DNA from: Nitrospinota bacterium
GTDB lineage: Bacteria; Nitrospinota; Nitrospinia; Nitrospinales; VA-1
Assembly: GCA_028345515.1 (NCBI GenBank)
Contig: JAOMDP010000002.1
Location: 65,180 to 129,179, forward strand
Direction: 5' to 3'
DNA length: 64,000 bases
This document shows, piece by piece, positions 5,176 through 63,004 of the stretch; position 1 is the first letter of the stretch, and each line of letters starts with the position of its first letter. The position numbers and the translations under genes are program-made. Under the pieces are notes generated by a model, which was not told where the DNA came from, ran no database searches, and saw nothing but the letters and a program-made list of their open reading frames with translations.

Positions 5176-6028
5176 TTTAAAACAGCAAACTGTCGTAATT
5201 ACTACAATTGACGAAATGAAAAAAGTAACTGCCGATTTAGATGGGCAAACTCTGGGCTTGATACCAACAATGGGATATTTACACGAAGGTCATATGAGCT
5301 TGGTAAAGCAATCCATTAAAACCTGCGACTATACCGTAGTCAGCATCTTCGTCAACCCCCGACAATTTAGTCCGAATGAAGATCTGGATATTTATCCCCA
5401 TGATTTACCAAGAGATTTAGAAAAATTGGGAGCTGCAGGAGTAAATGCGTTATTTCACCCAGAAAAAGAATTGATTTATCCCGAAGGGTTCAAAACAAAT
5501 ATAGAAGTGGAAACAATTACCGATCAACTATGTGGAAAAAGCAGACCTGATTTATTCAAGGGTGTGGCAACAATAATTGTCAAACTATTTAATATAATTC
5601 GCCCACAACACGCCTTTTTCGGGGAAAAAGATTGGCAGCAACTTGCAGTTATAGAAGCTTTAAACAGGGATTTAAATATGGATGTACAAATTCACAGAGT
5701 TCCTCTAATGCGTGAGCCTGATGGTTTGGCTATGAGTTCTCGAAACAACAATCTTTCACCTGAAGAAAGATTAAAAGCTCTTTGTCTTTCAAAATCCCTG
5801 AAATTTGCAAGGCAAAAAATTAAGCAGGGAGTTATTTCTTCAACCCAATTACGCCAGAGTATAAAAAATATTATTTCCGCTGAGCATGGTATACAAATTG
5901 ATTATATTTCTATTTGTGATCCCATAAGTTTAAAAGAAAAATTCGAGGTGAAAGGCCGAACGCTGATCGCACTGGCAGTAAAAATTGGGCCTACTCGACT
6001 TATCGATAATTGCATAGTAGAGGGCTAA
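5165..6028 (+). CDS. panC: Pantoate-beta-alanine ligase
   Basis: PTMGYLHEGHMSL, FVNPRQF, FGEKDWQQ, GLAMSSRN. Overlaps panB by 11 bp. Confidence 0.95.
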   Translation: MIVDLKQQTVVITTIDEMKKVTADLDGQTLGLIPTMGYLHEGHMSLVKQSIKTCDYTVVSIFVNPRQFSPNEDLDIYPHDLPRDLEKLGAAGVNALFHPEKELIYPEGFKTNIEVETITDQLCGKSRPDLFKGVATIIVKLFNIIRPQHAFFGEKDWQQLAVIEALNRDLNMDVQIHRVPLMREPDGLAMSSRNNNLSPEERLKALCLSKSLKFARQKIKQGVISSTQLRQSIKNIISAEHGIQIDYISICDPISLKEKFEVKGRTLIALAVKIGPTRLIDNCIVEG

Positions 6029-54465: not shown

Positions 54466-54930
54466 ATGAATATTTATCGGAATCCATTTATTGTTGCGCT
54501 TTGTGCTCCCCTTTACCAACTGGTCGCTACCATCGCCATTACCAATGATTTTCTGATGGCGGCTATCTTCATCATGTTTACTTTGGGACTCATTGGAGCG
54601 TATGTTAGCGATTTCCCATTGCTGCCAACACTATATATGAATGAGGTAGCACATAAAACCTCCGTTTCTTCATTAATGGGGATGTTATTAGGACTGATGC
54701 TGTTCCTTGCCTTTGGCACAGGAGGTAATGAAGGCGGCGATGGCGGAATGATCTCCGCTGGTGGTAAGTTTATGGCGACCTGGGGAATTTTATGCCTACC
54801 CGCTTATCCACTTATGGTATTTCTAATTGTAGGGTTGAACAAACGTGATCTCGAAGCAGAAAATGTAATTAGAAAACAAAAGAAAAAGAAAAACAGCGGC
54901 CCACCAATCATGAAACGTGATGGGTTTTAA
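54466..54930 (+). CDS. Hypothetical polytopic membrane protein
   Basis: 154 aa. Strong RBS AAGAGGAGA. Four hydrophobic segments, a Gly-rich loop and a Lys-rich tail. Confidence 0.55.
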   Translation: MNIYRNPFIVALCAPLYQLVATIAITNDFLMAAIFIMFTLGLIGAYVSDFPLLPTLYMNEVAHKTSVSSLMGMLLGLMLFLAFGTGGNEGGDGGMISAGGKFMATWGILCLPAYPLMVFLIVGLNKRDLEAENVIRKQKKKKNSGPPIMKRDGF

Positions 54931-55102
54931 GAAACCCGTTCTTAGTTGAAGCTGTACGGTTCGGGACCGCAAAACTTAAATCCCTTCATAAAACCAGCAT
55001 TAGAAAATTTTTTCCCATGCCCTTTTGTCATTTATCTAAAAATTTTCCCTTTAGAGAAAATACGACAAAATTTAAGGCCAACCGTTTTTTGATTCCTTAA
55101 AA

Positions 55103-55249
55103 CTACTCCTTAAGCCCAAAAGCCTTGCCTGAAATCTCTAAATCTTTACTTTTTAATGTTTTAATTTGTTCGTTTGCAAGTTTTAGTTGAGATTCAACAA
55201 TTGCCAAACGCACCTTTAATTGATTATTTTTATCAAATTTAAGCTTCAT
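55103..55249 (-). CDS. Possible small coiled-coil protein (48 aa)
   Basis: Hand-translated ORF MKLKFDKNNQLKVRLAIVESQLKLANEQIKTLKSKDLEISGKAFGLKE. GGAGGA RBS lies 7 nt upstream of the ATG at 55249. Below the track threshold. Confidence 0.4.
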   Translation of the reverse strand: MKLKFDKNNQLKVRLAIVESQLKLANEQIKTLKSKDLEISGKAFGLKE

Positions 55250-55297
55250 ACAATTATCCTCCTAAATTTTTAAATGAATCAATGAATATAGAAAAGC

Positions 55298-55327
55298 TTG
55301 ACATTTTCCAACCTTTTTTATGATAAT
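55298..55327 (+). promoter_or_regulatory. Sigma70-like promoter
   Basis: TTGACA (55298-55303), 18-nt spacer, GATAAT (55322-55327). Confidence 0.55.
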
Positions 55328-55340
55328 GATAATCATTATT
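55322..55340 (+). promoter_or_regulatory. Fur box (ferric uptake regulator operator)
   Basis: GATAATGATAATCATTATT matches 18 of 19 positions of the classical consensus GATAATGATAATCATTATC. It overlaps the -10 hexamer. Confidence 0.75.
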
Positions 55341-55380
55341 AAAATCAAGTATTATTTTACTTAATTAATTAGGAAACAAA

Positions 55381-55521
55381 GTGTTCGAAAAAACATACTT
55401 ACTAATTGTTGGGGTAATCGCAATCGCCAATTTATTTCTGATTATCCTATCTATTTTTTACTCCACCAATCTATTCAATACTTTTTTTGAGAAGTTATTC
55501 GTATTGCAAGGGATCACATAA
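55381..55521 (+). CDS. Possible small membrane peptide (46 aa)
   Basis: GTG start with an AGGAAA RBS 5 nt upstream. One TM helix (LLIVGVIAIANLFLIILSIF). First ORF after the Fur-box promoter. Confidence 0.35.
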   Translation: MFEKTYLLIVGVIAIANLFLIILSIFYSTNLFNTFFEKLFVLQGIT

Positions 55522-55556
55522 GCTCGATGTTTAAGCTTGAAGATTGGAATTAGATT

Positions 55557-55739
55557 ATGACTAATAAAACTCTTTTCATATTGGTCCTGATATTAGGAGC
55601 TTTTTTTTTGGCTTTAAACATCATGATTTTAAATCCAACTAAAAATCAAATTCCAAACCAGATTAAAACAGTCAACCCAAAAATTATTAGTCCAATAGAT
55701 TCCACAGAAACTTTGAAAAATGATGGATCCATTAAATAA
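55557..55739 (+). CDS. Possible small membrane protein (60 aa)
   Basis: ATG ORF. N-terminal TM helix (LFILVLILGAFFLALNIMIL) followed by a Pro/Asn/Ile-rich tail. Confidence 0.4.
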   Translation: MTNKTLFILVLILGAFFLALNIMILNPTKNQIPNQIKTVNPKIISPIDSTETLKNDGSIK

Positions 55740-55761
55740 ATTTTGTCTTGAATGGGAGAAC

Positions 55762-57489
55762 ATGATGATTAAGCAGCTAATACTTATTTTTTTCTGGTTA
55801 GCCTTAATAGCTGGGAATGCTTCGGGGATGCAAATAACCAATTCAAATTTTCAACAAATTTCTCCTAAAACAGGGTTCCTGGTTTTAGCACCAGACCGCG
55901 GTTTTGTAGGAAATAAGGAGACTCTTTCGGTTTTTAAAAATTTTAAAAAAGAATACTTGGCAAAAATTGTTTTTATTGGAAGAAAGTATGACGGATTAGA
56001 TAGTAATTATTCAGGATACATTCAAAAGGCCTTGTCGGGTTTTGATTCACTTTCCGTATCAAAGGTCGTAATTATTCCTCTATTTCTATCAAAATATAAT
56101 CACATTTTAAAGGAAGTAAGAAAACATCTTCCAGCATATAAATTTAAAGATCAGATTCATTGGAACGAAACTATGTCCGAGAGTTATCTAACTGGACAAA
56201 TACTTTTAGATCGTGTGAAAAAAATCAGTAAAAATTCAACCCAAGAAAAGCTTGTGATCCTTGGAAGAGGAGCACTTAATGAAAAGTCAGAGAATTTTAT
56301 GAAAAAAGAACTCGAGGGGTTATCTGATTATATAAAACAAAGAAAGGAATTTAAAAGTATTCAAACAGGTATTTATTACAGTTATAACGCAAAAGAAAAA
56401 CTCAGAGTAACCAAAGACAATGAAGTTGATGAAATGGTTATACATACTGCGGCAAAAAAGGGAAACACCTTGGTAATACCTTTTTTTATAGGTCCAAAAT
56501 ATTCAAATATGATGTCTTTGACTCATTTTTTTGACCGTAGGTTCCGGGACATAGACATTATTCATAATCCAGAAGAGATCTTGCTTCACCCAAATGTCCT
56601 GCTTTGGATGAAAAAAACTGCAAATAAATATATACCTTTAAATAGTCACGAACCCATTGGCATTGTGATAATGCCCCACGGCGCAACGCAACCTTACAAT
56701 GATGCAGTTGAAAAAACTATAGAACCTCTAAGGTCAAAGTATAAAGTTGAAATGGCCTATGGGATGGGTGATGCCGTAACTATTCAAAATGCGGTTTCTA
56801 ATCTTGAGTTTCAGGGTGTGAAAAAAATCGTATTTGTAAGGATGTATCCAACATCTGATCAGCTTAAAGAAAAAACGGATTATATCTTGGGATTGAGCGC
56901 AAAAATACCTGAACAGTGGGATGGATTAACTCCGCCTCAAATTAGAAGCAGCGCTATCATAAATACTTTTGGGGGATACGAGGAAGATAATCTGATTGCA
57001 GGAATATTTTTAGAAAGAATTAAAGAAGTCAGTAAAAAACCAAAAGAAGAAACGATTGTTTTGCTAGCTCACGGAAGTAGTGATGATCAAGCAGAGGTTT
57101 TGCGAAAAAAGAAAATGAAGAATCATATCGATTGGATTCAGAAACAGTTCAATCCTCCTTTTAAAAATATAAAAGGTATGGCTTTGAGAGAGGATTGGCC
57201 AGACAAAAGAGAAAAAGCCTTGAACGAGATTAAAAATATTATAGAGGAAGGAAATAAACGAGGACGGGTTATTGTGATTTCAAACCGTCTTTACGGAAGT
57301 GGCCCTTACAAACATTTCCTTAAAGGATTGAATTTTGAAATGAACTCAAAGGGATTAGCACCACACCCTAATTTAACAAGTTGGTTAGAAAAGGGTATAG
57401 CGTCAGTAATAAAAAATGAATTTTCTAAACAAATTTCAAATCAAAACGTAACTGATTTGAATATAAAGGTTTCGTCCACTATCAGGTAA
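55762..57489 (+). CDS. Secreted protein with four tandem CbiX/SirB-like (class II chelatase fold) modules
   Basis: ATG at 55762 with a GGGAGA RBS. Signal peptide MMIKQLILIFFWLALIAGNASG. Module starts are LVLAPDRGF, LVILGRGALN, VIMPHGATQPYND and VLLAHGSSDD. Module ends are VVIIPLFLSKYNH, LVIPFFIGPKYSN, IVFVRMYPTSDQ and VIVISNRLYGSGPY. Confidence 0.75.
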   Translation: MMIKQLILIFFWLALIAGNASGMQITNSNFQQISPKTGFLVLAPDRGFVGNKETLSVFKNFKKEYLAKIVFIGRKYDGLDSNYSGYIQKALSGFDSLSVSKVVIIPLFLSKYNHILKEVRKHLPAYKFKDQIHWNETMSESYLTGQILLDRVKKISKNSTQEKLVILGRGALNEKSENFMKKELEGLSDYIKQRKEFKSIQTGIYYSYNAKEKLRVTKDNEVDEMVIHTAAKKGNTLVIPFFIGPKYSNMMSLTHFFDRRFRDIDIIHNPEEILLHPNVLLWMKKTANKYIPLNSHEPIGIVIMPHGATQPYNDAVEKTIEPLRSKYKVEMAYGMGDAVTIQNAVSNLEFQGVKKIVFVRMYPTSDQLKEKTDYILGLSAKIPEQWDGLTPPQIRSSAIINTFGGYEEDNLIAGIFLERIKEVSKKPKEETIVLLAHGSSDDQAEVLRKKKMKNHIDWIQKQFNPPFKNIKGMALREDWPDKREKALNEIKNIIEEGNKRGRVIVISNRLYGSGPYKHFLKGLNFEMNSKGLAPHPNLTSWLEKGIASVIKNEFSKQISNQNVTDLNIKVSSTIR

Positions 57490-57547
57490 GCAAAGGATAA
57501 TCGTTAATCTCTTAAAAATAATATTTTAAATTAGAAAGGATAAGTCG

Positions 57548-58234
57548 ATGAAAAAGTTACTTTATTCTTTAATTATTGGCGTGTTTGTTTTGCTGGTGCA
57601 AAATGCTATGGCTCAAATGCCTCCTCCAACGGCACCGCCTGGTACGCCTCCGATGGCAGGCCGCACTGTTGATGAGTGCAAACAAATGAAACCCCGAGGC
57701 GACTACCAGTTAATGAAAGACAAGAAAAGGTGTTTCAGGGATGCTGCAAGAGCATTAGGGGCAGAGGAAATTGCACCAGGGGAATTACAAAGGTGCAAAC
57801 AAATAAAAGCCCGAGGCGATTTCGCCTTGATGAAACAAAAGAAAAATTGCATGAGAGACCTTGCAAGATCTTTGATGGCTGGTCCGGGTATAGCTCCAAC
57901 AGGAGATCCTAACATGCCTCCAACAGGCGTTCCTAACATGCCTCCTCCAACGGCACCGCCTGGTACGCCTCCGATGGCAGGCCGCACTGTTGATGAGTGC
58001 AAACAAATGAAACCCCGAGGCGACTACCAGTTAATGAAAGACAAGAAAAGGTGTTTCAGGGATGCTGCAAGAGCATTAGGGGCAGAGGAAATTGCACCAG
58101 GGGAATTACAAAGGTGCAAACAAATAAAAGCCCGAGGCGATTTCGCCTTGATGAAACAAAAGAAAAATTGCATGAGGGACCTTGCAAGATCTTTGATGGC
58201 TGGTCCGGGTATAGCTCCAGGAACAAATCCGTAA
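57548..58234 (+). CDS. Secreted Pro/Cys-rich tandem-repeat protein with four RGD motifs
   Basis: Signal peptide MKKLLYSLIIGVFVLLVQNAMA. Two identical 94-aa units, each with two C-x17-C sub-repeats (CKQMKPRGDYQLMKDKKRC, CKQIKARGDFALMKQKKNC). AAAGGA RBS. Confidence 0.8.
   Translation: MKKLLYSLIIGVFVLLVQNAMAQMPPPTAPPGTPPMAGRTVDECKQMKPRGDYQLMKDKKRCFRDAARALGAEEIAPGELQRCKQIKARGDFALMKQKKNCMRDLARSLMAGPGIAPTGDPNMPPTGVPNMPPPTAPPGTPPMAGRTVDECKQMKPRGDYQLMKDKKRCFRDAARALGAEEIAPGELQRCKQIKARGDFALMKQKKNCMRDLARSLMAGPGIAPGTNP
57617..58219 (+). repeat. Tandem direct duplication, period 321 bp
   Basis: 57617-57898 and 57938-58219 differ at one position by eye (AGA vs AGG Arg codon, near 57856 and 58177). The 39-bp linker carries a short internal direct repeat of CCTAACATGCCTCC. 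Confidence 0.95.
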
Positions 58235-58397
58235 CGGAACTCCTGGAAATTAATAATTGATTGTATCCAAGCCCACGGGGCTGAGAAAAAGATGATCTTC
58301 TCCGCTTGTCCAAGTTTTTCTATATCCAAAATAGAAAAACTTGGAACAACAGAGCAAGACAGGCTTCTTTCTAATCCCTAAAGGGAGAAGTCTCTGG

Positions 58398-58441
58398 ATC
58401 AGAAGGGGTTGGGTCCCCATTACCAATCCCTTCTGATTTTC
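58398..58441 (+). terminator. Hairpin with short T-tract, possible terminator of the 55.3-58.2 kb transcription unit
   Basis: Perfect 10-bp stem ATCAGAAGGG/CCCTTCTGAT (58398-58407 / 58428-58437), 20-nt loop, followed by TTT. Confidence 0.4.
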
Positions 58442-58682
58442 AAACAAAAGGATTTTACTATGCAAGCCAAATTAAAATAGATATCTGGAAGGTGTCTCCA
58501 AGTCCAACCCCCAAGATAACTCTAATTTCTAACTAGCAGATACCTTAGTTCGAAGCGAAACAGGCTTTCTTTGATAGAAAGCTCTGGGTAAGCGGAAAGG
58601 GGTTGCGCCCTTTTCGCTTATCACGCTTTGCAAACCTTAATTTATTAAAAACAAACTTTTTGAGGATCAATGGAGAAATATT

Positions 58683-59417
58683 ATGAAAAAGTTTTACTTA
58701 ATAGCTGTCATTATAGGAACTATTTTTATAACTATTGTAAGTGGTTGTGCTGTCAAAACTGTCGACACAAAAAACGTAAATCAGGAAATGGAAAGATCAA
58801 AAAAAGCTCCTGTCGTAGGTAAAATTCCTGCTAAAGAAAAAACAATTGAACCTCCAATAAAAAAAATTATTCCAGATAAAAATTTGTCATCTTTTATCGT
58901 GGAAGAAAGCCTGACAAATGAAAATAATATTGATAAATTTTCCGATTCGAATATTGATGATATTAATTTAATGCAAACCGAAAAAGCAACACCATCAAAA
59001 GAGCAGTTTAATCCATTCTTCAATCCAAATTCTAACGACAACGAGAAAAAGGATACTAATACAAAATTTATTCAATCTGAAAAACTAGATGATGTTTATT
59101 TCAGTTTTGATCAATACAACATAGATGAATCGGCAAAAAAGATTCTATCTAAAAACGCAGAGTGGCTTAAATATAACCCCGCCTTAAAGATTCAGTTGGC
59201 AGGTCATTGTGATGAAAGAGGAACCAATAATTATAATATTGCTTTAGGAGATAGACGGGCACTTTATGTAAAGAAGCAGCTCGCATTTTTAGGCATAAGT
59301 GAGAATAGAATGTTTGCAATCAGTTATGGGGAAGAAAAACCAACTTGCTCGGAAGGTGAAGAGAAATGCTGGAGAAAAAATCGTCGTGTTCAATTTTTAA
59401 TAATTTCTGATCAATGA
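58683..59417 (+). CDS. pal: Peptidoglycan-associated OmpA-domain lipoprotein (Pal-like) with long linker
   Basis: Lipobox IVSGC. C-terminal VYFSFDQYNI...LAGHCDERGTNNYNIALGDRRA...ISYGEEKP is the Pal/OmpA_C signature. A 100-aa low-complexity linker is present. Confidence 0.85.
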   Translation: MKKFYLIAVIIGTIFITIVSGCAVKTVDTKNVNQEMERSKKAPVVGKIPAKEKTIEPPIKKIIPDKNLSSFIVEESLTNENNIDKFSDSNIDDINLMQTEKATPSKEQFNPFFNPNSNDNEKKDTNTKFIQSEKLDDVYFSFDQYNIDESAKKILSKNAEWLKYNPALKIQLAGHCDERGTNNYNIALGDRRALYVKKQLAFLGISENRMFAISYGEEKPTCSEGEEKCWRKNRRVQFLIISDQ

Positions 59418-59660: not shown

Positions 59661-61571
59661 TTAATTCCATCCATATGGGAACCCCAACAAGTCTGCCCTT
59701 GCCTTAATTCCCTTAGCAAGTTGATACTCGTTATTTAAATTTAAATGATTTATCAAACTCAAAAATATGGAACGACCTAAAATAGGATTGGCCCAATAAA
59801 AATTAACATGTTGCATAACAAACATGTTTTTAGTTTTGTTTGAAATATTCTTACTTTCCGGCAAAGAATTAAAAAGCACGAATTTGTAATTAGGATCGCT
59901 ACCTTGCTTTATAGCTTTCACAAACTCAAGGTAATCACTTATGAATGGATTTTGTTTATAGTTTTTCTGAAATTTTAATCTTTCCTTTTCAAAAGATATA
60001 TTTTTTAATAAAGGATTTAATTGTATTGATTTTAATAAATATTTTTTAGAAAGATTTTCTTCTTTTATTATTAAGTAAAGGCAACTCAATATCCAAGGAG
60101 TAATAGAATTATCAGGGCTCATCAAAATGGATTTTTTCAATAAGCTTTCAAGTTTTCTAAAAAGTTTTGGCTTTTTAGTATCTTCGTGAAACTGAAGCAA
60201 ACTTCCCAAGGCAAACTCGTTGATCGCCCTCACATAAATAAATACTTTAAGATTTTTATGTGAAGAACTGCAAAAAGTTTTACTTAAAGCAACGCAACCC
60301 GAACCTGCAAGATCTTCAATTCTATTAGAGGCAAAAATACTTTTTAAATAATCCAGTTCAAGTTTATTATTCGACCAACTTGCCTTGGAAATATTTATTT
60401 TATTATTATTTACTAAACCAATTATGGGCTCCAATAATTTAAATGCCATAATCCTATTACCCGACCCAGTTGGATGAACAGGGTCGAAAAAGAAGTCATT
60501 TTTACCAGGTATATTAATTGAAAGGCCATTATCAACATAAGATGCATGAGGATACTCTCTGGCCAATTTAATTTTAATTTCACTAGTAGATAGGAGCGCT
60601 TTTTGACGGTATGTTAACTCCCGAGTATTCATATTCCCGAACTGAACATATTCTTTAAAATTTTTTACGGAATTTTTTTCATAAACCCCTGGTAATCCCA
60701 TTAAAATTAATTTTATATTTTTTTCTTTTGTTTTTTCAGCAATCTCGCGCAAATTATTCTCATAAAGATCCAGGTTTTTCTTCAAAACATTAAACCCTAA
60801 TTCTGAATTTGTTTTTTTTACTAGTTCGATAATTTCAAGACGTAATAAACGAAATATATTTGACTTAATTAATAAAGGGTGGTGACTTTCACAATAATCC
60901 CTAGAGTTTGTTATGTCAGCTGATCTGAATTTGTTTATATCGTTCCAACCACTCATTAGAACTAGCAGATCCGGTTTCAATTCAATAATTTCATTTTGAA
61001 ATCTTGTTTTTATCTGACATGTATTATGACCCCACATACCAGCATTAATTACCTGGAAATATTCTTTTTTAGTTTTTGATTGATTTAGCATTCGCTCTAA
61101 AATTCTTGGATACGTCAATTCATTTTCATGCATCCCCGCAGTAGTGGAACCTCCCATAGTGACAATTCGAAAAATATTAGAATCCTTCTTTTTTACAAAG
61201 TAAGGCCCTCTATACCCTAAGCTGTTAATTGCAATATCACCATTTTCATTACGTATAATTCCTTCCTTTTTATTAAAATTTAATTTTGTTGATATAAGTT
61301 TCTTTGATACAACCTTATTGAGTTTGCCTTTCATGATTGTCTGAACCTCTATCGGAAAACTCTTTGTTTCCTTATCCATTGCTGCTTTACGTATCCTATA
61401 ACCTAAATTTTCATCATACTCCATAAAAGGATGATGCTTTTCCATCAACCCAATAATCCCATAAATATTTTTATTGGTAATTATATTTCCCGAAAACCAC
61501 TCCAGAGCCGCAAAGATTAAACTATTAATCAAAATAGTGAAAAATATAATTTTTTTCATTTTTGTTTGCAT
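59661..61571 (-). CDS. Membrane-anchored SGNH/GDSL-type hydrolase with helical-repeat C-terminal domain
   Basis: N-terminal TM. Block I IVTMGGSTTAG, block II NAGMWGHN, block III LMSGWNDI, block V DPVHPTGSG. 636 aa. Confidence 0.7.
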   Translation of the reverse strand: MQTKMKKIIFFTILINSLIFAALEWFSGNIITNKNIYGIIGLMEKHHPFMEYDENLGYRIRKAAMDKETKSFPIEVQTIMKGKLNKVVSKKLISTKLNFNKKEGIIRNENGDIAINSLGYRGPYFVKKKDSNIFRIVTMGGSTTAGMHENELTYPRILERMLNQSKTKKEYFQVINAGMWGHNTCQIKTRFQNEIIELKPDLLVLMSGWNDINKFRSADITNSRDYCESHHPLLIKSNIFRLLRLEIIELVKKTNSELGFNVLKKNLDLYENNLREIAEKTKEKNIKLILMGLPGVYEKNSVKNFKEYVQFGNMNTRELTYRQKALLSTSEIKIKLAREYPHASYVDNGLSINIPGKNDFFFDPVHPTGSGNRIMAFKLLEPIIGLVNNNKINISKASWSNNKLELDYLKSIFASNRIEDLAGSGCVALSKTFCSSSHKNLKVFIYVRAINEFALGSLLQFHEDTKKPKLFRKLESLLKKSILMSPDNSITPWILSCLYLIIKEENLSKKYLLKSIQLNPLLKNISFEKERLKFQKNYKQNPFISDYLEFVKAIKQGSDPNYKFVLFNSLPESKNISNKTKNMFVMQHVNFYWANPILGRSIFLSLINHLNLNNEYQLAKGIKARADLLGFPYGWN

Positions 61572-61957: not shown

Positions 61958-63004
61958 TTGGCCAATCTTATTATATTTTTTTTATTTTTCGCAATTTTAG
62001 AAGGTGTTGCAAGTTTCTATTATGCTTACCAAGAAGTGCGCCAAAAAATCAAGAAAGAACCGTTTCTTGCTGAACGGCTCCATACTGAATATGATCCATT
62101 ATTAGGGTGGATCAATAAGCCTAATATTTCTATTGATAACATGTATGGTCCGAATGTGTATCTCAAAACTAACGGCCAACGATTTAGGGGGGAAACTGAT
62201 TTCACTACCAACGTTCCAAACGGAAGAATTAGAGTTATATGTTCAGGTGATTCGTTTACCCTTGGTTATGGCGTAGATAACGCGAGCACTTGGTGTAATT
62301 ATCTTGAGCTGATTGACCCACGCATTCAGAGTGTCAACATGGGGCAGGGTGGATATGGCGTTGGCCAGGCTTATCTTTGGTATAAACGCGATGGTGCGCA
62401 ACTCGACCACTCAATACATATCTTCGCCTTCATCAGTGAAGACTTTAAACGCATGATGAAGAAAAGTTTTCTGGGCGTGCCAAAACCATTACTACGTGTA
62501 AGAAATGAAGAAATTATAGTTGAAAACACACCGATCAGTAGATTATCGTTTCGCAAAATTCATGAAAAATACTTAAAATTTTTTAATATTGCTAGACTAG
62601 CCAAAAAAGTTAGAGGAATCAGCTTTTCAGAAAACGTAAATAAGCCCTCGGTTTTAATTGAAAAGGAGATGGAGGAGTTAATAGGAAAAGTTTTTGGCAA
62701 TTTAAAAAAAATTAATAGAGCTAAAAACAGTAAACTTATACTCGTTCATTTACCGACACAATACGAACATAGAAGTGCCTACTATGAAAATATTTACAAA
62801 TTTGTTCGCCAGGAGGCAGAAAAAAAAGGAATTACTTACCTTAATTTAGTTAGGGAAATACGACAAGTTTCTTCTTCCGAAATGGTAAAGTTTTTTTTCC
62901 AAAAAGATATTAAAGATTTCGCCTATTCGAAAGGACATTTGACCCCTATAGGTAATTTGTACGTCGCTAAAAAGATTTCTAAAACTCTTACCAAAAGTAA
63001 TTAA
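61958..63004 (+). CDS. Membrane-anchored SGNH/GDSL-type hydrolase
   Basis: VICSGDSFTLGYG (GDS block), NMGQGGYG, and KGHLTPIG near the C-terminus. The track start is the TTG at 61958. An in-frame CTG at 61922 is preceded by GGAGGA at 6 nt and would give MKKIFQKYLKLC... Confidence 0.7.
   Translation: MANLIIFFLFFAILEGVASFYYAYQEVRQKIKKEPFLAERLHTEYDPLLGWINKPNISIDNMYGPNVYLKTNGQRFRGETDFTTNVPNGRIRVICSGDSFTLGYGVDNASTWCNYLELIDPRIQSVNMGQGGYGVGQAYLWYKRDGAQLDHSIHIFAFISEDFKRMMKKSFLGVPKPLLRVRNEEIIVENTPISRLSFRKIHEKYLKFFNIARLAKKVRGISFSENVNKPSVLIEKEMEELIGKVFGNLKKINRAKNSKLILVHLPTQYEHRSAYYENIYKFVRQEAEKKGITYLNLVREIRQVSSSEMVKFFFQKDIKDFAYSKGHLTPIGNLYVAKKISKTLTKSN

What the first reader, a model, noticed from the sequence alone, without database searches (positions are those of the whole stretch)
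55762..57489. Secreted protein built from four CbiX-like chelatase half-domains
After a cleavable-looking signal peptide come four consecutive modules of about 130 aa. Each resembles a CbiX/SirB class II chelatase half-domain. Module 4 opens with the canonical VLLAHGSSDD and module 3 with VIMPHGATQPYND. Modules 1-2 have lost the His (LVLAPDRGF, LVILGRGALN). Each module ends with a hydrophobic strand plus a P/G motif (VVIIPLFLSKYNH, LVIPFFIGPKYSN, IVFVRMYPTSDQ, VIVISNRLYGSGPY). This amounts to two full chelatase folds, one apparently catalytic-like and one degenerate, exported to the periplasm. Chelatases of this class normally act in the cytoplasm. From memory, a periplasmic heme-binding CbiK paralogue linked to iron-transport genes has been described in Desulfovibrio vulgaris. 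A four-module, Fur-box-linked form would extend that idea, for example as a dechelatase, a heme or metal chaperone, or a scavenger.
Basis: partly seen in the sequence, partly recalled or inferred. Interest (0 to 1): 0.65.

Follow-up and report, generated by a model that had tools for sequence, protein, structure and literature searches.

The report
Exported double chelatase-fold iron-starvation protein
A marine nitrite-oxidising bacterium (Nitrospina) encodes a secreted protein made of two copies of the enzyme fold that normally puts metals into haem-like rings; an iron-sensor binding site sits on the likely promoter, and in related bacteria the gene sits beside haem-type uptake genes, so it probably helps extract iron from haem outside the cytoplasm.

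Summary
ORF 55762-57489 encodes a 575-aa protein with a Sec-type signal peptide and four CbiX-like modules. These form two complete class II chelatase folds: the N-half model matches B. subtilis SirB at TM 0.69-0.70, and the two halves align at 99.2% hhalign probability. A Fur box with 18 of 19 consensus bases overlaps the -10 element of the best promoter-like site upstream.

The "one catalytic, one degenerate" reading is only partly right. No module keeps the canonical His pair. The C-half keeps one invariant His in each lobe (H306, H437) plus an REDW motif. The N-half keeps an equally invariant D45-R46-G47...N51 motif.

The protein belongs to an apparently uncharacterised exported family in Nitrospina, Nitrospira, Manganitrophaceae and some Gammaproteobacteria. 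In relatives the gene lies in Fur-box-headed operons with TonB, HmuY-like lipoproteins and TonB-dependent receptors that are mostly of the haem/haemoglobin type. The window itself has none of these partners.

Best reading: a periplasmic haem or metalloporphyrin-handling component of iron acquisition, possibly a dechelatase. This is an inference; nothing biochemical was tested. It is a new variant of a known kind, the exported CbiK-like proteins CbiKP and IhtB/FetB.

The parts
55298..55327 (+). Sigma-70-type promoter-like site: TTGACA, 18 nt, GATAAT
   Evidence: It is the best-scoring site in 54900-58700, with 11 of 12 matches. The total number of sites in the region is not above shuffles. Its weight comes from its position and its overlap with the Fur box.
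55322..55340 (.). Fur box GATAATGATAATCATTATT
   Evidence: It matches 18 of 19 bases of the consensus; 0.03 such sites are expected by chance. It is the only site with 4 or fewer mismatches in the whole 64-kb window. Fur-like boxes also head the orthologous operons. In related loci 38 such sites were found, against 0-1 in shuffled sequence.
55381..55521 (+). Small conserved single-transmembrane ORF (46 aa, GTG start, VFEKTYLLIVGVIAIANLFLIILS...)
   Evidence: It is conserved upstream of the orthologue in L059 (78% identity), L061-63 (41%) and L060. An unrelated 36-aa hydrophobic ORF sits in the same place in N. watsonii L001. Its function is unknown.
55557..55739 (+). Second small hydrophobic ORF (60 aa, MTNKTLFILVLILGAFF...); reality uncertain
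   Evidence: Only MTNK-hydrophobic fragments are seen in L059. There is no tblastn hit at E below 0.01 and no Pfam hit.
55762..57489 (+). Gene for the 575-aa exported tandem class II chelatase-fold protein (coordinates include the stop codon)
55762..55827 (+). Predicted Sec signal peptide (aa 1-22, MMIKQLILIFFWLALIAGNASG; cleavage after A-S-G is inferred)
   Evidence: Sequence features, and 55 of 59 relatives have an equivalent segment. In the AF2 model it is a helix at residues 2-21 followed by a low-confidence linker at 18-33.
55861..56211 (+). Module 1 (aa 34-150). It carries the invariant D45-R46-G47...G50-N51 motif where the first catalytic His would be, plus P106-L-F.
   Evidence: Pfam CbiX and NCBIfam CfbA hit residues 85-131. 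The DRG codons at 55894-55902 were checked.
56212..56637 (+). Module 2 (aa 151-292). Together with module 1 it completes the first chelatase fold.
   Evidence: Module 2 resembles module 4 at 97.5% hhalign probability. The N-half model matches SirB at TM 0.69-0.70.
56638..57036 (+). Module 3 (aa 293-425). It carries invariant H306-G307...N313, M335, D337 and R360.
   Evidence: A profile of the two-module relatives hits CfbA (6m25) at E 7e-8, and H306 aligns with CfbA His9. The PHG codons were checked.
57037..57429 (+). Module 4 (aa 426-556). It carries invariant H437-G438, R476-E477-D478-W479 and R509.
   Evidence: Modules 3 and 4 together correspond to free-standing exported proteins of about 300 aa.

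Best explanation
The gene encodes a periplasmic protein that is probably repressed by Fur and exported by the Sec pathway. It was built by tandem duplication of a bilobal class II (CbiX-type) chelatase fold. I read it as a haem or metalloporphyrin-handling component of an iron-starvation response.

Proposed mechanism. When iron is scarce, Fur leaves the box that overlaps the -10 element. The small membrane peptide and the protein are then made, and the protein is exported unfolded. In the periplasm its C-terminal fold binds a metalloporphyrin, most likely haem brought in by a haem-type TonB-dependent receptor. The binding cleft would be formed by H306, H437, R476-E-D-W and several invariant arginines. 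The fold then releases the iron by running the chelatase reaction backwards, and the iron is taken up separately. The N-terminal fold (D45-R46-G47...N51) is a diverged second site, for example for the released metal, the free porphyrin or a partner protein.

Shown: the fold, the duplication, export signals across the family, the Fur box, and the haem-type genomic context in relatives.

Inferred: ligand identity, the direction of the reaction, Fur repression itself, and the roles of the two halves.
For: Fold and duplication.

Export: signal-like N-termini occur in 55 of 59 full-length relatives, 9 with a lipobox. The ~300-aa two-module relatives also have N-terminal leaders, several with Cys-containing lipoprotein-like ends.

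Iron regulation.
- The Fur box matches 18 of 19 bases and overlaps the -10 element.
- Fur-like boxes sit at the head of operons containing the orthologue in Nitrospina, Nitrospira, Manganitrophaceae and Gammaproteobacteria.
- 38 such sites were found in 793 kb of related loci, against 0-1 in shuffles.
- A FUR-family gene lies divergently upstream in L061-63.

Haem-type context in relatives.
- A TonB-dependent receptor is present in 42 of 54 loci, and within three genes of the orthologue in 33 of 53.
- 23 of the 38 nearest receptors hit TIGR01785 (haem/haemoglobin receptor) at E of 1e-60 or better; only 2 hit the siderophore type.
- 3 of 5 receptors tested singly exceed the curated cut-off.
- TonB is present in 21 loci and HmuY-family proteins in 13; ExbB, PepSY_TM and bacterioferritin also occur.
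- None of the recurrent neighbour families that were annotated is a haem ABC importer or a haem oxygenase. Many singleton neighbour ORFs were not annotated. Nitrospira loci instead carry a MacAB/HlyD-type pump directly upstream. By my own recollection, E. coli MacAB-TolC exports protoporphyrin IX; PMC12094164 only treats such a role as hypothetical in P. gingivalis.

Precedents for haem dechelation and exported chelatase folds.
- HmuS, a CobN-type enzyme encoded in the hmu operon, removes iron from haem (PMC12583661).
- IhtB/FetB is an exported CbiK-like haem-binding lipoprotein proposed to be a reverse ferrochelatase (PMC12094164). FetB was shown to support Mn-PPIX formation (PMC13065792).

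No link to tetrapyrrole biosynthesis: there is no riboswitch, and the neighbours are housekeeping genes.
Against: The window has no TonB-dependent receptor, TonB, ExbB, HmuY, PepSY, bacterioferritin or MacB homologue anywhere in its 64 kb. The four Nitrospina-group loci with long flanks (L001, L005, L008, L013) also lack an adjacent receptor. The haem link is therefore borrowed from more distant relatives at 40-50% identity.

The canonical His pair needed for metal insertion or removal is incomplete in every module. Catalysis would need a non-canonical site.

No reductant or electron donor for ferric haem is apparent in the window.

The HmuY Pfam family and the TIGR01785-type receptors are not proof of haem specificity, and two of five receptors tested singly fall below the curated cut-off.

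Model coordinates could not be inspected, so the cleft geometry of H306 and H437 is assumed from topology.

Nothing biochemical was tested.
Confidence: 0.45

Rival explanations
1. It is a non-catalytic periplasmic haem or porphyrin binding, shuttle or buffering protein. The chelatase fold would be used only as a binding scaffold: H306 and H437 (or conserved Met residues) ligate haem iron, and the protein passes haem on from the receptor or sequesters it.
For: It shares the context evidence of the best explanation. The catalytic His pair is incomplete. One invariant His in each of two facing lobes would suit bis-His ligation. CbiKP and FetB are isolated with bound haem or porphyrin (PMC13065792). 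The fold is related to periplasmic binding proteins, which give weaker Foldseek hits at TM 0.2-0.4.
Against: Among the recurrent, annotated neighbour families there is no inner-membrane haem importer or cytoplasmic haem-degrading enzyme to receive the haem. The many invariant polar and charged residues (R360, R419, R476, E477, D478, R509) look more like an active site than a simple pocket, but this is an inference.
Confidence: 0.25
2. It is a periplasmic metal-ion or ferric-chelate (siderophore-type) binding or release protein with no tetrapyrrole involved. The two clefts would bind Fe, another metal or a carboxylate-rich iron chelate delivered by TonB-dependent receptors, perhaps working with PepSY-type membrane reductases.
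For: Fur control. PepSY_TM proteins and a multicopper oxidase occur in some loci. Two of 38 receptors are of siderophore type, and 13 match none of the listed receptor families at E of 1e-60 or better. His, Asp and Glu are metal ligands, and the many invariant Arg residues would suit an anionic chelate. In Nitrospina the gene stands alone behind its Fur box.
Against: The best structural matches are tetrapyrrole chelatases at TM about 0.7, not binding proteins at 0.2-0.4. Most neighbouring receptors are of haem/haemoglobin type, and HmuY-family partners recur.
Confidence: 0.15
3. It is a periplasmic metal-inserting chelatase or haem-delivery factor for exported haem-b proteins, for example the Sec-exported gamma subunit of periplasmic nitrite oxidoreductase in Nitrospina and Nitrospira.
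For: The family is concentrated in Nitrospina and Nitrospira. By my own knowledge, not tested here, these have periplasmic NXR. FetB shows that exported class II chelatases can insert metal (PMC13065792).
Against: A Fur box predicts expression under iron starvation, which is the opposite of what a haem-protein maturation factor would need. The gene is linked to uptake receptors and TonB, not to nxr genes. The family also occurs in Manganitrophaceae, Gammaproteobacteria and a Sphingomonadales MAG.
Confidence: 0.05
4. It is an ordinary biosynthetic sirohydrochlorin or protoporphyrin chelatase (SirB, CbiX or HemH), as several databases name it.
For: Pfam CbiX is just above its threshold. Source names include 'sirohydrochlorin ferrochelatase', 'protoheme ferro-lyase' and 'sirohydrochlorin cobaltochelatase'.
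Against: Signal peptides occur throughout the family. The catalytic His pair is absent. It scores far below the NCBIfam cut-offs: 39 against 120 for CfbA and 14 against 125 for HemH. There is no biosynthetic context or B12 riboswitch. It is under Fur control with uptake-gene neighbours.
Confidence: 0.02

Closest known systems
Desulfovibrio vulgaris periplasmic CbiK (CbiKP; PDB 2xvx/2xvz)
   Same: It is an exported class II chelatase fold with a signal peptide that binds haem. The structural match is TM 0.59-0.61 to the N-half model. CbiKP is described as binding metallated porphyrins (PMC13065792, citing Lobo et al. 2008).
   Different: CbiKP is a single bilobal fold of about 260 aa from the CbiK sequence family, and by the literature it keeps a working cobaltochelatase site. 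The window protein is a tandem of two folds from the CbiX/CfbA lineage. It has no PF06180 hit and no significant sequence match to any PDB chelatase as a single sequence. Its His pair is incomplete.
Porphyromonas gingivalis IhtB/FetB (PDB 9b86)
   Same: It is an exported CbiK-like lipoprotein encoded next to a TonB-dependent receptor. It binds haem and is proposed to be a reverse ferrochelatase (PMC12094164). It has chelatase activity that forms Mn-PPIX (PMC13065792). The structural match is TM 0.53.
   Different: It is a single fold from the CbiK family. It is described as outer-membrane associated and surface-exposed, belongs to Bacteroidota, and is encoded with an ABC iron importer. The present family has two folds and different conserved residues. 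It occurs in Nitrospinota, Nitrospirota and Gammaproteobacteria, usually with TonB and HmuY-like proteins and with no ABC importer among the annotated neighbours.
HmuS of the Bacteroidota hmuYRSTUV operon (haem dechelatase)
   Same: This is a 'works like' analogy. A chelatase-superfamily protein is encoded with a HmuY-type protein and a haem TonB-dependent receptor, and it removes Fe(II) from haem to leave PPIX (PMC12583661). The same operon logic (HmuY-like, receptor, chelatase-fold protein) is seen in L007, L009, L012, L014, L015 and L045.
   Different: HmuS is a large, membrane-bound, NADH-dependent class I (CobN-like) protein of anaerobes. The window protein is a soluble-looking, exported class II fold in aerobic or microaerophilic chemolithoautotrophs. 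It is not a sequence relative.
Cytoplasmic class II chelatases: CbiXS/CfbA, CbiXL/SirB, CbiK, HemH/CpfC
   Same: The fold is the same and there is detectable sequence relationship: Pfam CbiX, a profile hit to CfbA at E 7e-8, and SirB at TM 0.69-0.72. The evolutionary theme is the same: repeated duplication of a CbiXS-like half-domain (PMC7689651).
   Different: Those enzymes are cytoplasmic and have one or two half-domains per chain with a His/His (or His/Glu) pair in one domain. Here there are four half-domains per chain, the protein is exported, and there is one His in each of two lobes of the C-half and none in the N-half.

Membership tests
Class II chelatase superfamily (CbiX, PF01903) | Bilobal alpha/beta fold of two CbiXS-like half-domains | tested here: met
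   Met twice over. The N-half model matches SirB at TM 0.69/0.70. The whole model matches SirB at TMt 0.72. The N-half and C-half align at 99.2% hhalign probability.
Class II chelatase superfamily (CbiX, PF01903) | Sequence match above the curated Pfam threshold | tested here: met
   24.8 bits against a cut-off of 22. This is marginal. Most homologues carry a precomputed PF01903 hit.
Catalytically canonical class II chelatases (CbiXS/CfbA/SirB/CbiK/HemH) | A pair of active-site histidines (His10/His74-type; His/Glu in HemH) within one half-domain (PMC7689651) | tested here: not met
   The first His is kept in M3 (H306) and M4 (H437). It is replaced by D45/R46 in M1 and is not kept in M2. The second-His position is lost in all four modules across the family; H114 in M1 occurs only in the window's clade.
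Catalytically canonical class II chelatases (CbiXS/CfbA/SirB/CbiK/HemH) | NCBIfam equivalog score (CfbA, HemH) | tested here: not met
   CfbA 39.4 bits against a cut-off of 120; hemH 14.1 against 124.6.
Catalytically canonical class II chelatases (CbiXS/CfbA/SirB/CbiK/HemH) | Cytoplasmic location and tetrapyrrole-biosynthesis gene context or B12 riboswitch | tested here: not met
   A signal peptide is present. Neighbours are speA, suhB-like, mnmA-like, rsmD-like and tRNA-Gln. No Rfam element was found.
Catalytically canonical class II chelatases (CbiXS/CfbA/SirB/CbiK/HemH) | Metal insertion into (or removal from) a tetrapyrrole in vitro | not testable with these tools
   This needs purified protein.
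Exported CbiK-type haem-binding proteins (CbiKP, IhtB/FetB) | N-terminal export signal | tested here: met
   This is a rule-based assessment; SignalP was not available.
Exported CbiK-type haem-binding proteins (CbiKP, IhtB/FetB) | Membership of the CbiK sequence family (PF06180) | tested here: not met
   The window protein has no PF06180 hit at E of 10 or better. One distant relative (P0125) has a sub-threshold hit. The structural match is only TM 0.53-0.61.
Exported CbiK-type haem-binding proteins (CbiKP, IhtB/FetB) | Genomic link to iron or haem uptake genes | tested here: inconclusive
   Met in relatives: a TonB-dependent receptor is present in 42 of 54 loci, mostly of haem type. Not met in the window or in the Nitrospina loci.
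Exported CbiK-type haem-binding proteins (CbiKP, IhtB/FetB) | Haem or porphyrin binding | not testable with these tools
   This needs spectroscopy on purified protein.
Fur regulon | Fur-box consensus placed at the promoter | tested here: met
   18 of 19 bases match, and the box overlaps the -10 hexamer. It is the only such site in the window.
Fur regulon | Conservation of the site upstream of orthologues | tested here: met
   38 sites were found against 0-1 in shuffles.
Fur regulon | Fur binding and iron-dependent repression | not testable with these tools
   This needs EMSA or footprinting, or transcript data under iron limitation.
HmuS-type (class I, CobN-like) haem dechelatases | CobN/Mg-chelatase homology and membrane-bound, NADH-dependent activity | tested here: not met
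   No CobN-type Pfam or NCBIfam hit was found. Only the operon logic is analogous.
Type I periplasmic binding proteins | Best structural match to solute-binding proteins | tested here: not met
   Ribose-binding-type hits reach only TM 0.2-0.4, against 0.6-0.7 for chelatases.

The most novel reading that the evidence does not exclude
The family is a previously unrecognised soluble, periplasmic, class II-fold haem dechelatase of aerobic chemolithoautotrophs, including abundant marine Nitrospina. Under iron starvation it would strip iron from haem, or another environmental metalloporphyrin, in the periplasm. It would do this through a non-canonical site with one histidine from each lobe, without importing or breaking the ring. 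The duplicated N-terminal fold would capture the released iron or the porphyrin, and the porphyrin would then be expelled, in Nitrospira by the adjacent MacAB-type pump.
Probability: 0.28. Interest if true: 0.8.

Novelty: new variant of a known kind. Interest (0 to 1): 0.6.

Why it matters
By general knowledge, nitrite oxidisers such as Nitrospina and Nitrospira need much iron for nitrite oxidoreductase and their cytochromes, and they often live where iron is scarce. How they obtain iron is poorly known.

A family that carries Fur boxes across lineages and sits beside haem-type receptors points to haem or metalloporphyrins as an iron source for these organisms. It also points to a route that extracts iron in the periplasm rather than through cytoplasmic haem oxygenase.

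For enzymology, the protein would add a fourth round of duplication to the CbiXS, CbiXL/CbiK series. It would also add a new distribution of active-site residues across the lobes.

Practically, these proteins are named 'sirohydrochlorin ferrochelatase', 'sirohydrochlorin cobaltochelatase' or 'protoheme ferro-lyase' in source databases. Those names would mislead metabolic reconstructions of sirohaem, B12 and haem synthesis in these organisms.

Tried and rejected
- A single-sequence search of PDB chains found no chelatase; only a profile of the two-module relatives reached CfbA and CbiX.
- Model coordinates are not exposed, so the distance and orientation of H306 and H437 and the shape of the cleft could not be measured.
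- Cobalamin or other riboswitch control: nothing was found. Rejected.
- Biosynthetic chelatase: rejected on export signals, the missing His pair, sub-threshold equivalog scores and gene context.
- The downstream 228-aa repeat protein as a conserved partner: it is present only in very close relatives (L003, weakly L059) and absent elsewhere. Rejected as part of the system.
- Transport partners in the window (TonB-dependent receptor, TonB, ExbB, HmuY, PepSY, bacterioferritin, MacB, HlyD): none were found by tblastn.
- Literature searches found no paper on this four-module family. This holds only within the held library.
- The terminator scan found none between the Fur box and the end of the gene. 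This is consistent with one transcript but is weak evidence.
Full report
**1. What is in the sequence**

The ORF at 55762-57489 (+) is real and encodes 575 aa. A GGGAG motif precedes the ATG at 55762, and homologues start at the equivalent MIK/MKK position. The in-frame ATG at 55720 is therefore probably not used.

The closest relatives, at 90-92% identity, are contigs of uncultured marine Nitrospina MAGs (L003, L004). The window has about 38% G+C.

**2. Four modules make two chelatase folds**

- Pfam CbiX is just above its gathering score, at 24.8 against 22 bits.
- NCBIfam CfbA gives E 5e-10 but is far below its equivalog cut-off. HemH is negligible.
- I cut a 47-sequence family alignment into four modules. 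hhalign pairs M1 with M3 (86%) and M2 with M4 (97.5%).
- The whole N-half aligns with the whole C-half at 99.2% probability, E 1e-19, 26% identity over 210 columns. The architecture is therefore (A-B)(A'-B'): a tandem duplication of an already bilobal unit.
- AlphaFold2 with that alignment gives a confident model, with pLDDT 86.5 and pTM 0.84. It shows four beta-alpha repeats of the expected pattern.
- Foldseek against the PDB returns DR2241, B. subtilis SirB (TMt 0.72), CbiK, CbiKP and coproporphyrin ferrochelatase ahead of periplasmic sugar-binding proteins.
- That search could not say which half matched, so I modelled the N-half alone (pLDDT 89.3). It matches SirB over its full length (TM 0.69/0.70), CbiKP (0.61), ferrochelatases (0.59-0.66) and P. 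gingivalis FetB (0.53).
- The C-half corresponds to a large set of free-standing proteins of about 300 aa. Their profile hits M. jannaschii CfbA at E 7e-8.

**3. Export**

The N-terminus is MMIKQLILIFFWLALIAGNASG|MQ. It has a basic residue, a 13-residue hydrophobic core and a small-x-small site.

Across 59 full-length four-module proteins that share only 21-65% identity, 55 have such a segment ahead of the first conserved strand, and 9 have a lipobox. The two-module relatives also have N-terminal leaders, several with Cys-containing lipoprotein-like ends.

SignalP could not be run. The family-wide pattern makes export the only reasonable reading. No twin-arginine motif was evident in the N-termini listed, though I ran no motif scan. 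Export would then be through Sec, with the protein crossing unfolded and without cofactor.

**4. Active-site residues**

Class II chelatases are defined by a pair of histidines in one half-domain. Examples are His10/His74 in CbiXS, His145/His207 in CbiK and His14/His79 in CbiXL; HemH has His/Glu (PMC7689651).

In the profile alignment to CfbA, H306 aligns with His9. The position of His75 falls in a gap of the family.

Across the 59 divergent full-length members, the residues conserved at 91-100% are as follows:
- N-half: D45, R46, G47, G50, N51, P106, G170, M251, W282.
- C-half: H306, G307, N313, M335, R360, G404, G405, R419, H437, G438, R476, E477, D478, W479, R509, G514.

The C-half therefore keeps the first His in each of its two lobes and the second His in neither. 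M1 has Asp-Arg where the His would be. M2 has nothing conserved there.

H114 of M1 sits exactly at the second-His spacing (P106 plus 8), but it is confined to the window's clade.

Two conclusions follow:
- The protein fails the catalytic-site test for a canonical chelatase.
- The N-half is not a decayed copy. It is as tightly conserved as the C-half, but around different residues.

**5. Regulation**

GATAATGATAATCATTATT at 55322-55340 matches the 19-bp Fur consensus at 18 positions. About 0.03 such sites are expected by chance, and it is the only site with 4 or fewer mismatches in the 64 kb.

Its first hexamer is the -10 element of the best promoter-like site of the region (TTGACA, 18 nt, GATAAT; 11 of 12 matches). 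This is the classic arrangement for Fur repression.

Between the box and the gene lie two small ORFs:
- A 46-aa single-pass membrane ORF (55381-55521, GTG start). It is conserved in front of the orthologue in L059 (78% identity), L060 and L061-63 (41%), and replaced by a 36-aa hydrophobic ORF in N. watsonii.
- A second, poorly conserved 60-aa ORF (55557-55739).

No terminator-like site separates them from the gene.

Fur-like boxes recur upstream of orthologues:
- N. watsonii at -197, with one mismatch in a 59% G+C genome.
- L007, L009, L017 and L029, with two mismatches.
- L059, L060 and L061-63, where a FUR-family gene lies divergently next to the box.
- In Nitrospira, the box sits in front of TonB, which is the first gene of the TonB, chelatase-like gene, receptor operon.

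In 793 kb of related loci there are 38 sites with 4 or fewer mismatches, against 0-1 in shuffled sequence.

**6. Genomic context in relatives**

Fifty-six loci were recovered from species-representative genomes. They come from Nitrospina and Nitrospinaceae, Nitrospira and Nitrospirales, Ca. Manganitrophaceae, several Gammaproteobacteria (Ca. Tenderia, Acidiferrobacterales, Chromatiales) and one Sphingomonadales MAG.

I clustered the neighbouring ORFs and annotated them:
- A TonB-dependent receptor is present in 42 of 54 loci. It is within three genes in 33 of 53 and directly adjacent in 16.
- A TonB C-terminal-domain protein is present in 21 loci.
- HmuY-family proteins are present in 13 loci.
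- ExbB, PepSY_TM proteins, bacterioferritin and a multicopper oxidase occur in some.
- Many Nitrospira loci carry an AraC regulator and a HlyD/ABC/MacB-type pump immediately upstream.
- These loci also carry a second, two-module paralogue of about 310 aa, followed by a PepSY_TM-like protein.

Of the 38 receptors nearest the gene, 23 hit TIGR01785 (haem/haemoglobin receptor family) at E of 1e-60 or better, and only 2 hit the siderophore-receptor family. Of five tested singly, three exceed the curated TIGR01785/TIGR01786 cut-offs.

None of the recurrent neighbour families that I annotated is a haem ABC importer or a haem oxygenase. Many singleton neighbour ORFs were not annotated.

The window, and the Nitrospina-group loci with long flanks, lack all of these partners. 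There the gene stands alone behind its Fur box, among housekeeping genes: arginine decarboxylase, an inositol monophosphatase family protein, MnmA-type and RsmD-type enzymes, and tRNA-Gln. No riboswitch was found.

**7. Interpretation**

The shown facts are:
- an exported, tandem class II chelatase fold;
- strong purifying selection on two different putative sites;
- a Fur box at the promoter, conserved across phyla;
- in most non-Nitrospina relatives, co-operonic haem-type outer-membrane uptake machinery, with no inner-membrane haem importer among the annotated neighbour families.

The most economical explanation is a periplasmic haem or metalloporphyrin-handling step in iron acquisition.

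Two precedents make iron removal plausible:
- HmuS, a class I chelatase-family protein encoded in the hmu operon, is a proven haem dechelatase (PMC12583661).
- The exported CbiK-like IhtB/FetB of P. gingivalis is proposed to be a reverse ferrochelatase and has chelatase activity (PMC12094164, PMC13065792).

By my own recollection, E. coli MacAB-TolC exports protoporphyrin IX; the review I read only calls such a role hypothetical in P. gingivalis. If that recollection holds, the MacAB-type pump next to the Nitrospira genes would fit disposal of the porphyrin. This last point is speculative.

Three things count against a catalytic role: the incomplete His pair, the lack of an obvious reductant, and the absence of partners in the window's lineage. 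A non-catalytic haem-binding role and a metal or ferric-chelate role therefore remain serious rivals. A biosynthetic role is effectively excluded.

**8. Comparison with what is known, and novelty**

Exported class II chelatase folds tied to iron or haem are known (CbiKP, IhtB/FetB). This is not a new category.

It differs from them in these ways:
- sequence lineage: CbiX/CfbA-like, not CbiK;
- a four-module architecture;
- the distribution of conserved residues: one His per lobe in the C-half, and Asp-Arg in the N-half;
- taxonomy: Nitrospinota, Nitrospirota and Gammaproteobacteria;
- operon partners: TonB, an HmuY-like protein and a haem-type receptor.

I found no paper on the family in the held library. 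No member has a solved structure detectable by sequence. Source databases give names such as 'sirohydrochlorin ferrochelatase', 'sirohydrochlorin cobaltochelatase' or 'protoheme ferro-lyase', which are probably wrong.

I rate it a new variant of a known kind, with interest 0.6.

Noticed in passing
window 57548-58234 (+): The ORF just downstream encodes a 228-aa protein with an N-terminal hydrophobic segment. It is Pro-rich and Cys-containing, and it consists of a 321-bp unit repeated 1.9 times at 99% identity, so the internal duplication is very recent. The only Pfam hit is a marginal HAMP_2 match. It is present in the closest relative L003, only weakly in L059, and not elsewhere.
   Followed up: partly
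window 55381-55521 (+); L059 5545-5682; L061 3057-3197; L060 about 5650-5800; L001 9848-9958: A 36-46 aa single-pass membrane peptide ('MFEK...LQG') is conserved immediately upstream of the chelatase-like gene throughout marine Nitrospina-like lineages. It has no Pfam family. It may be a membrane partner or a regulator.
   Followed up: partly
L007, L009, L012, L045, L006 (genes flanking the orthologue): In Nitrospira and Manganitrophaceae operons the orthologue is flanked by two small, related proteins of about 75-85 aa. One hits DUF6686, and both share the motif 'RC..G.YH.......H....F....LFKLA'. Their function is unknown.
   Followed up: no
L009 11998-13581; L015 4314-5888: The HmuY-family proteins in these operons carry an extra domain of about 130 aa. 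It has a His...Cys...His...Met pattern reminiscent of a cupredoxin (type 1 copper) site, at the N-terminus in L009 and the C-terminus in L015. Pfam did not name it at E of 0.001 or better.
   Followed up: partly
L060 4069-5621; L061 2363-2996 (same in L062, L063): In some marine relatives, two HU-family DNA-binding protein genes lie between the Fur box and the small-peptide and chelatase-like genes, apparently in the same Fur-box-headed transcription unit.
   Followed up: no
L030, L034, L035, L037, L042-L044, L049, L052, L056: Nitrospira loci carry a second, two-module paralogue of about 310 aa. It is followed by a PepSY_TM-like membrane protein and preceded by a receptor and an OmpR-type winged-helix protein. 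The single-fold and double-fold forms therefore coexist in one gene cluster.
   Followed up: partly
P0146 (828 aa): One representative has the four-module protein fused to part of a TonB-dependent receptor Plug domain. This is either a real fusion or a gene-calling merge of adjacent genes. Either way it reflects the tight adjacency of the two genes.
   Followed up: no
window 55110-55252 (-): A short minus-strand ORF reads away from the Fur-box region. By eye it looks coiled-coil and begins MKLKFDKNNQLK. The Fur box could serve divergent promoters. It was read from the sequence only.
   Followed up: no
window 59661-61571 (-) and 61958-63004 (+): Two GDSL/SGNH-type lipase or acylhydrolase-like genes lie in a stretch of lower G+C (0.30) than the rest of the window.
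   Followed up: no
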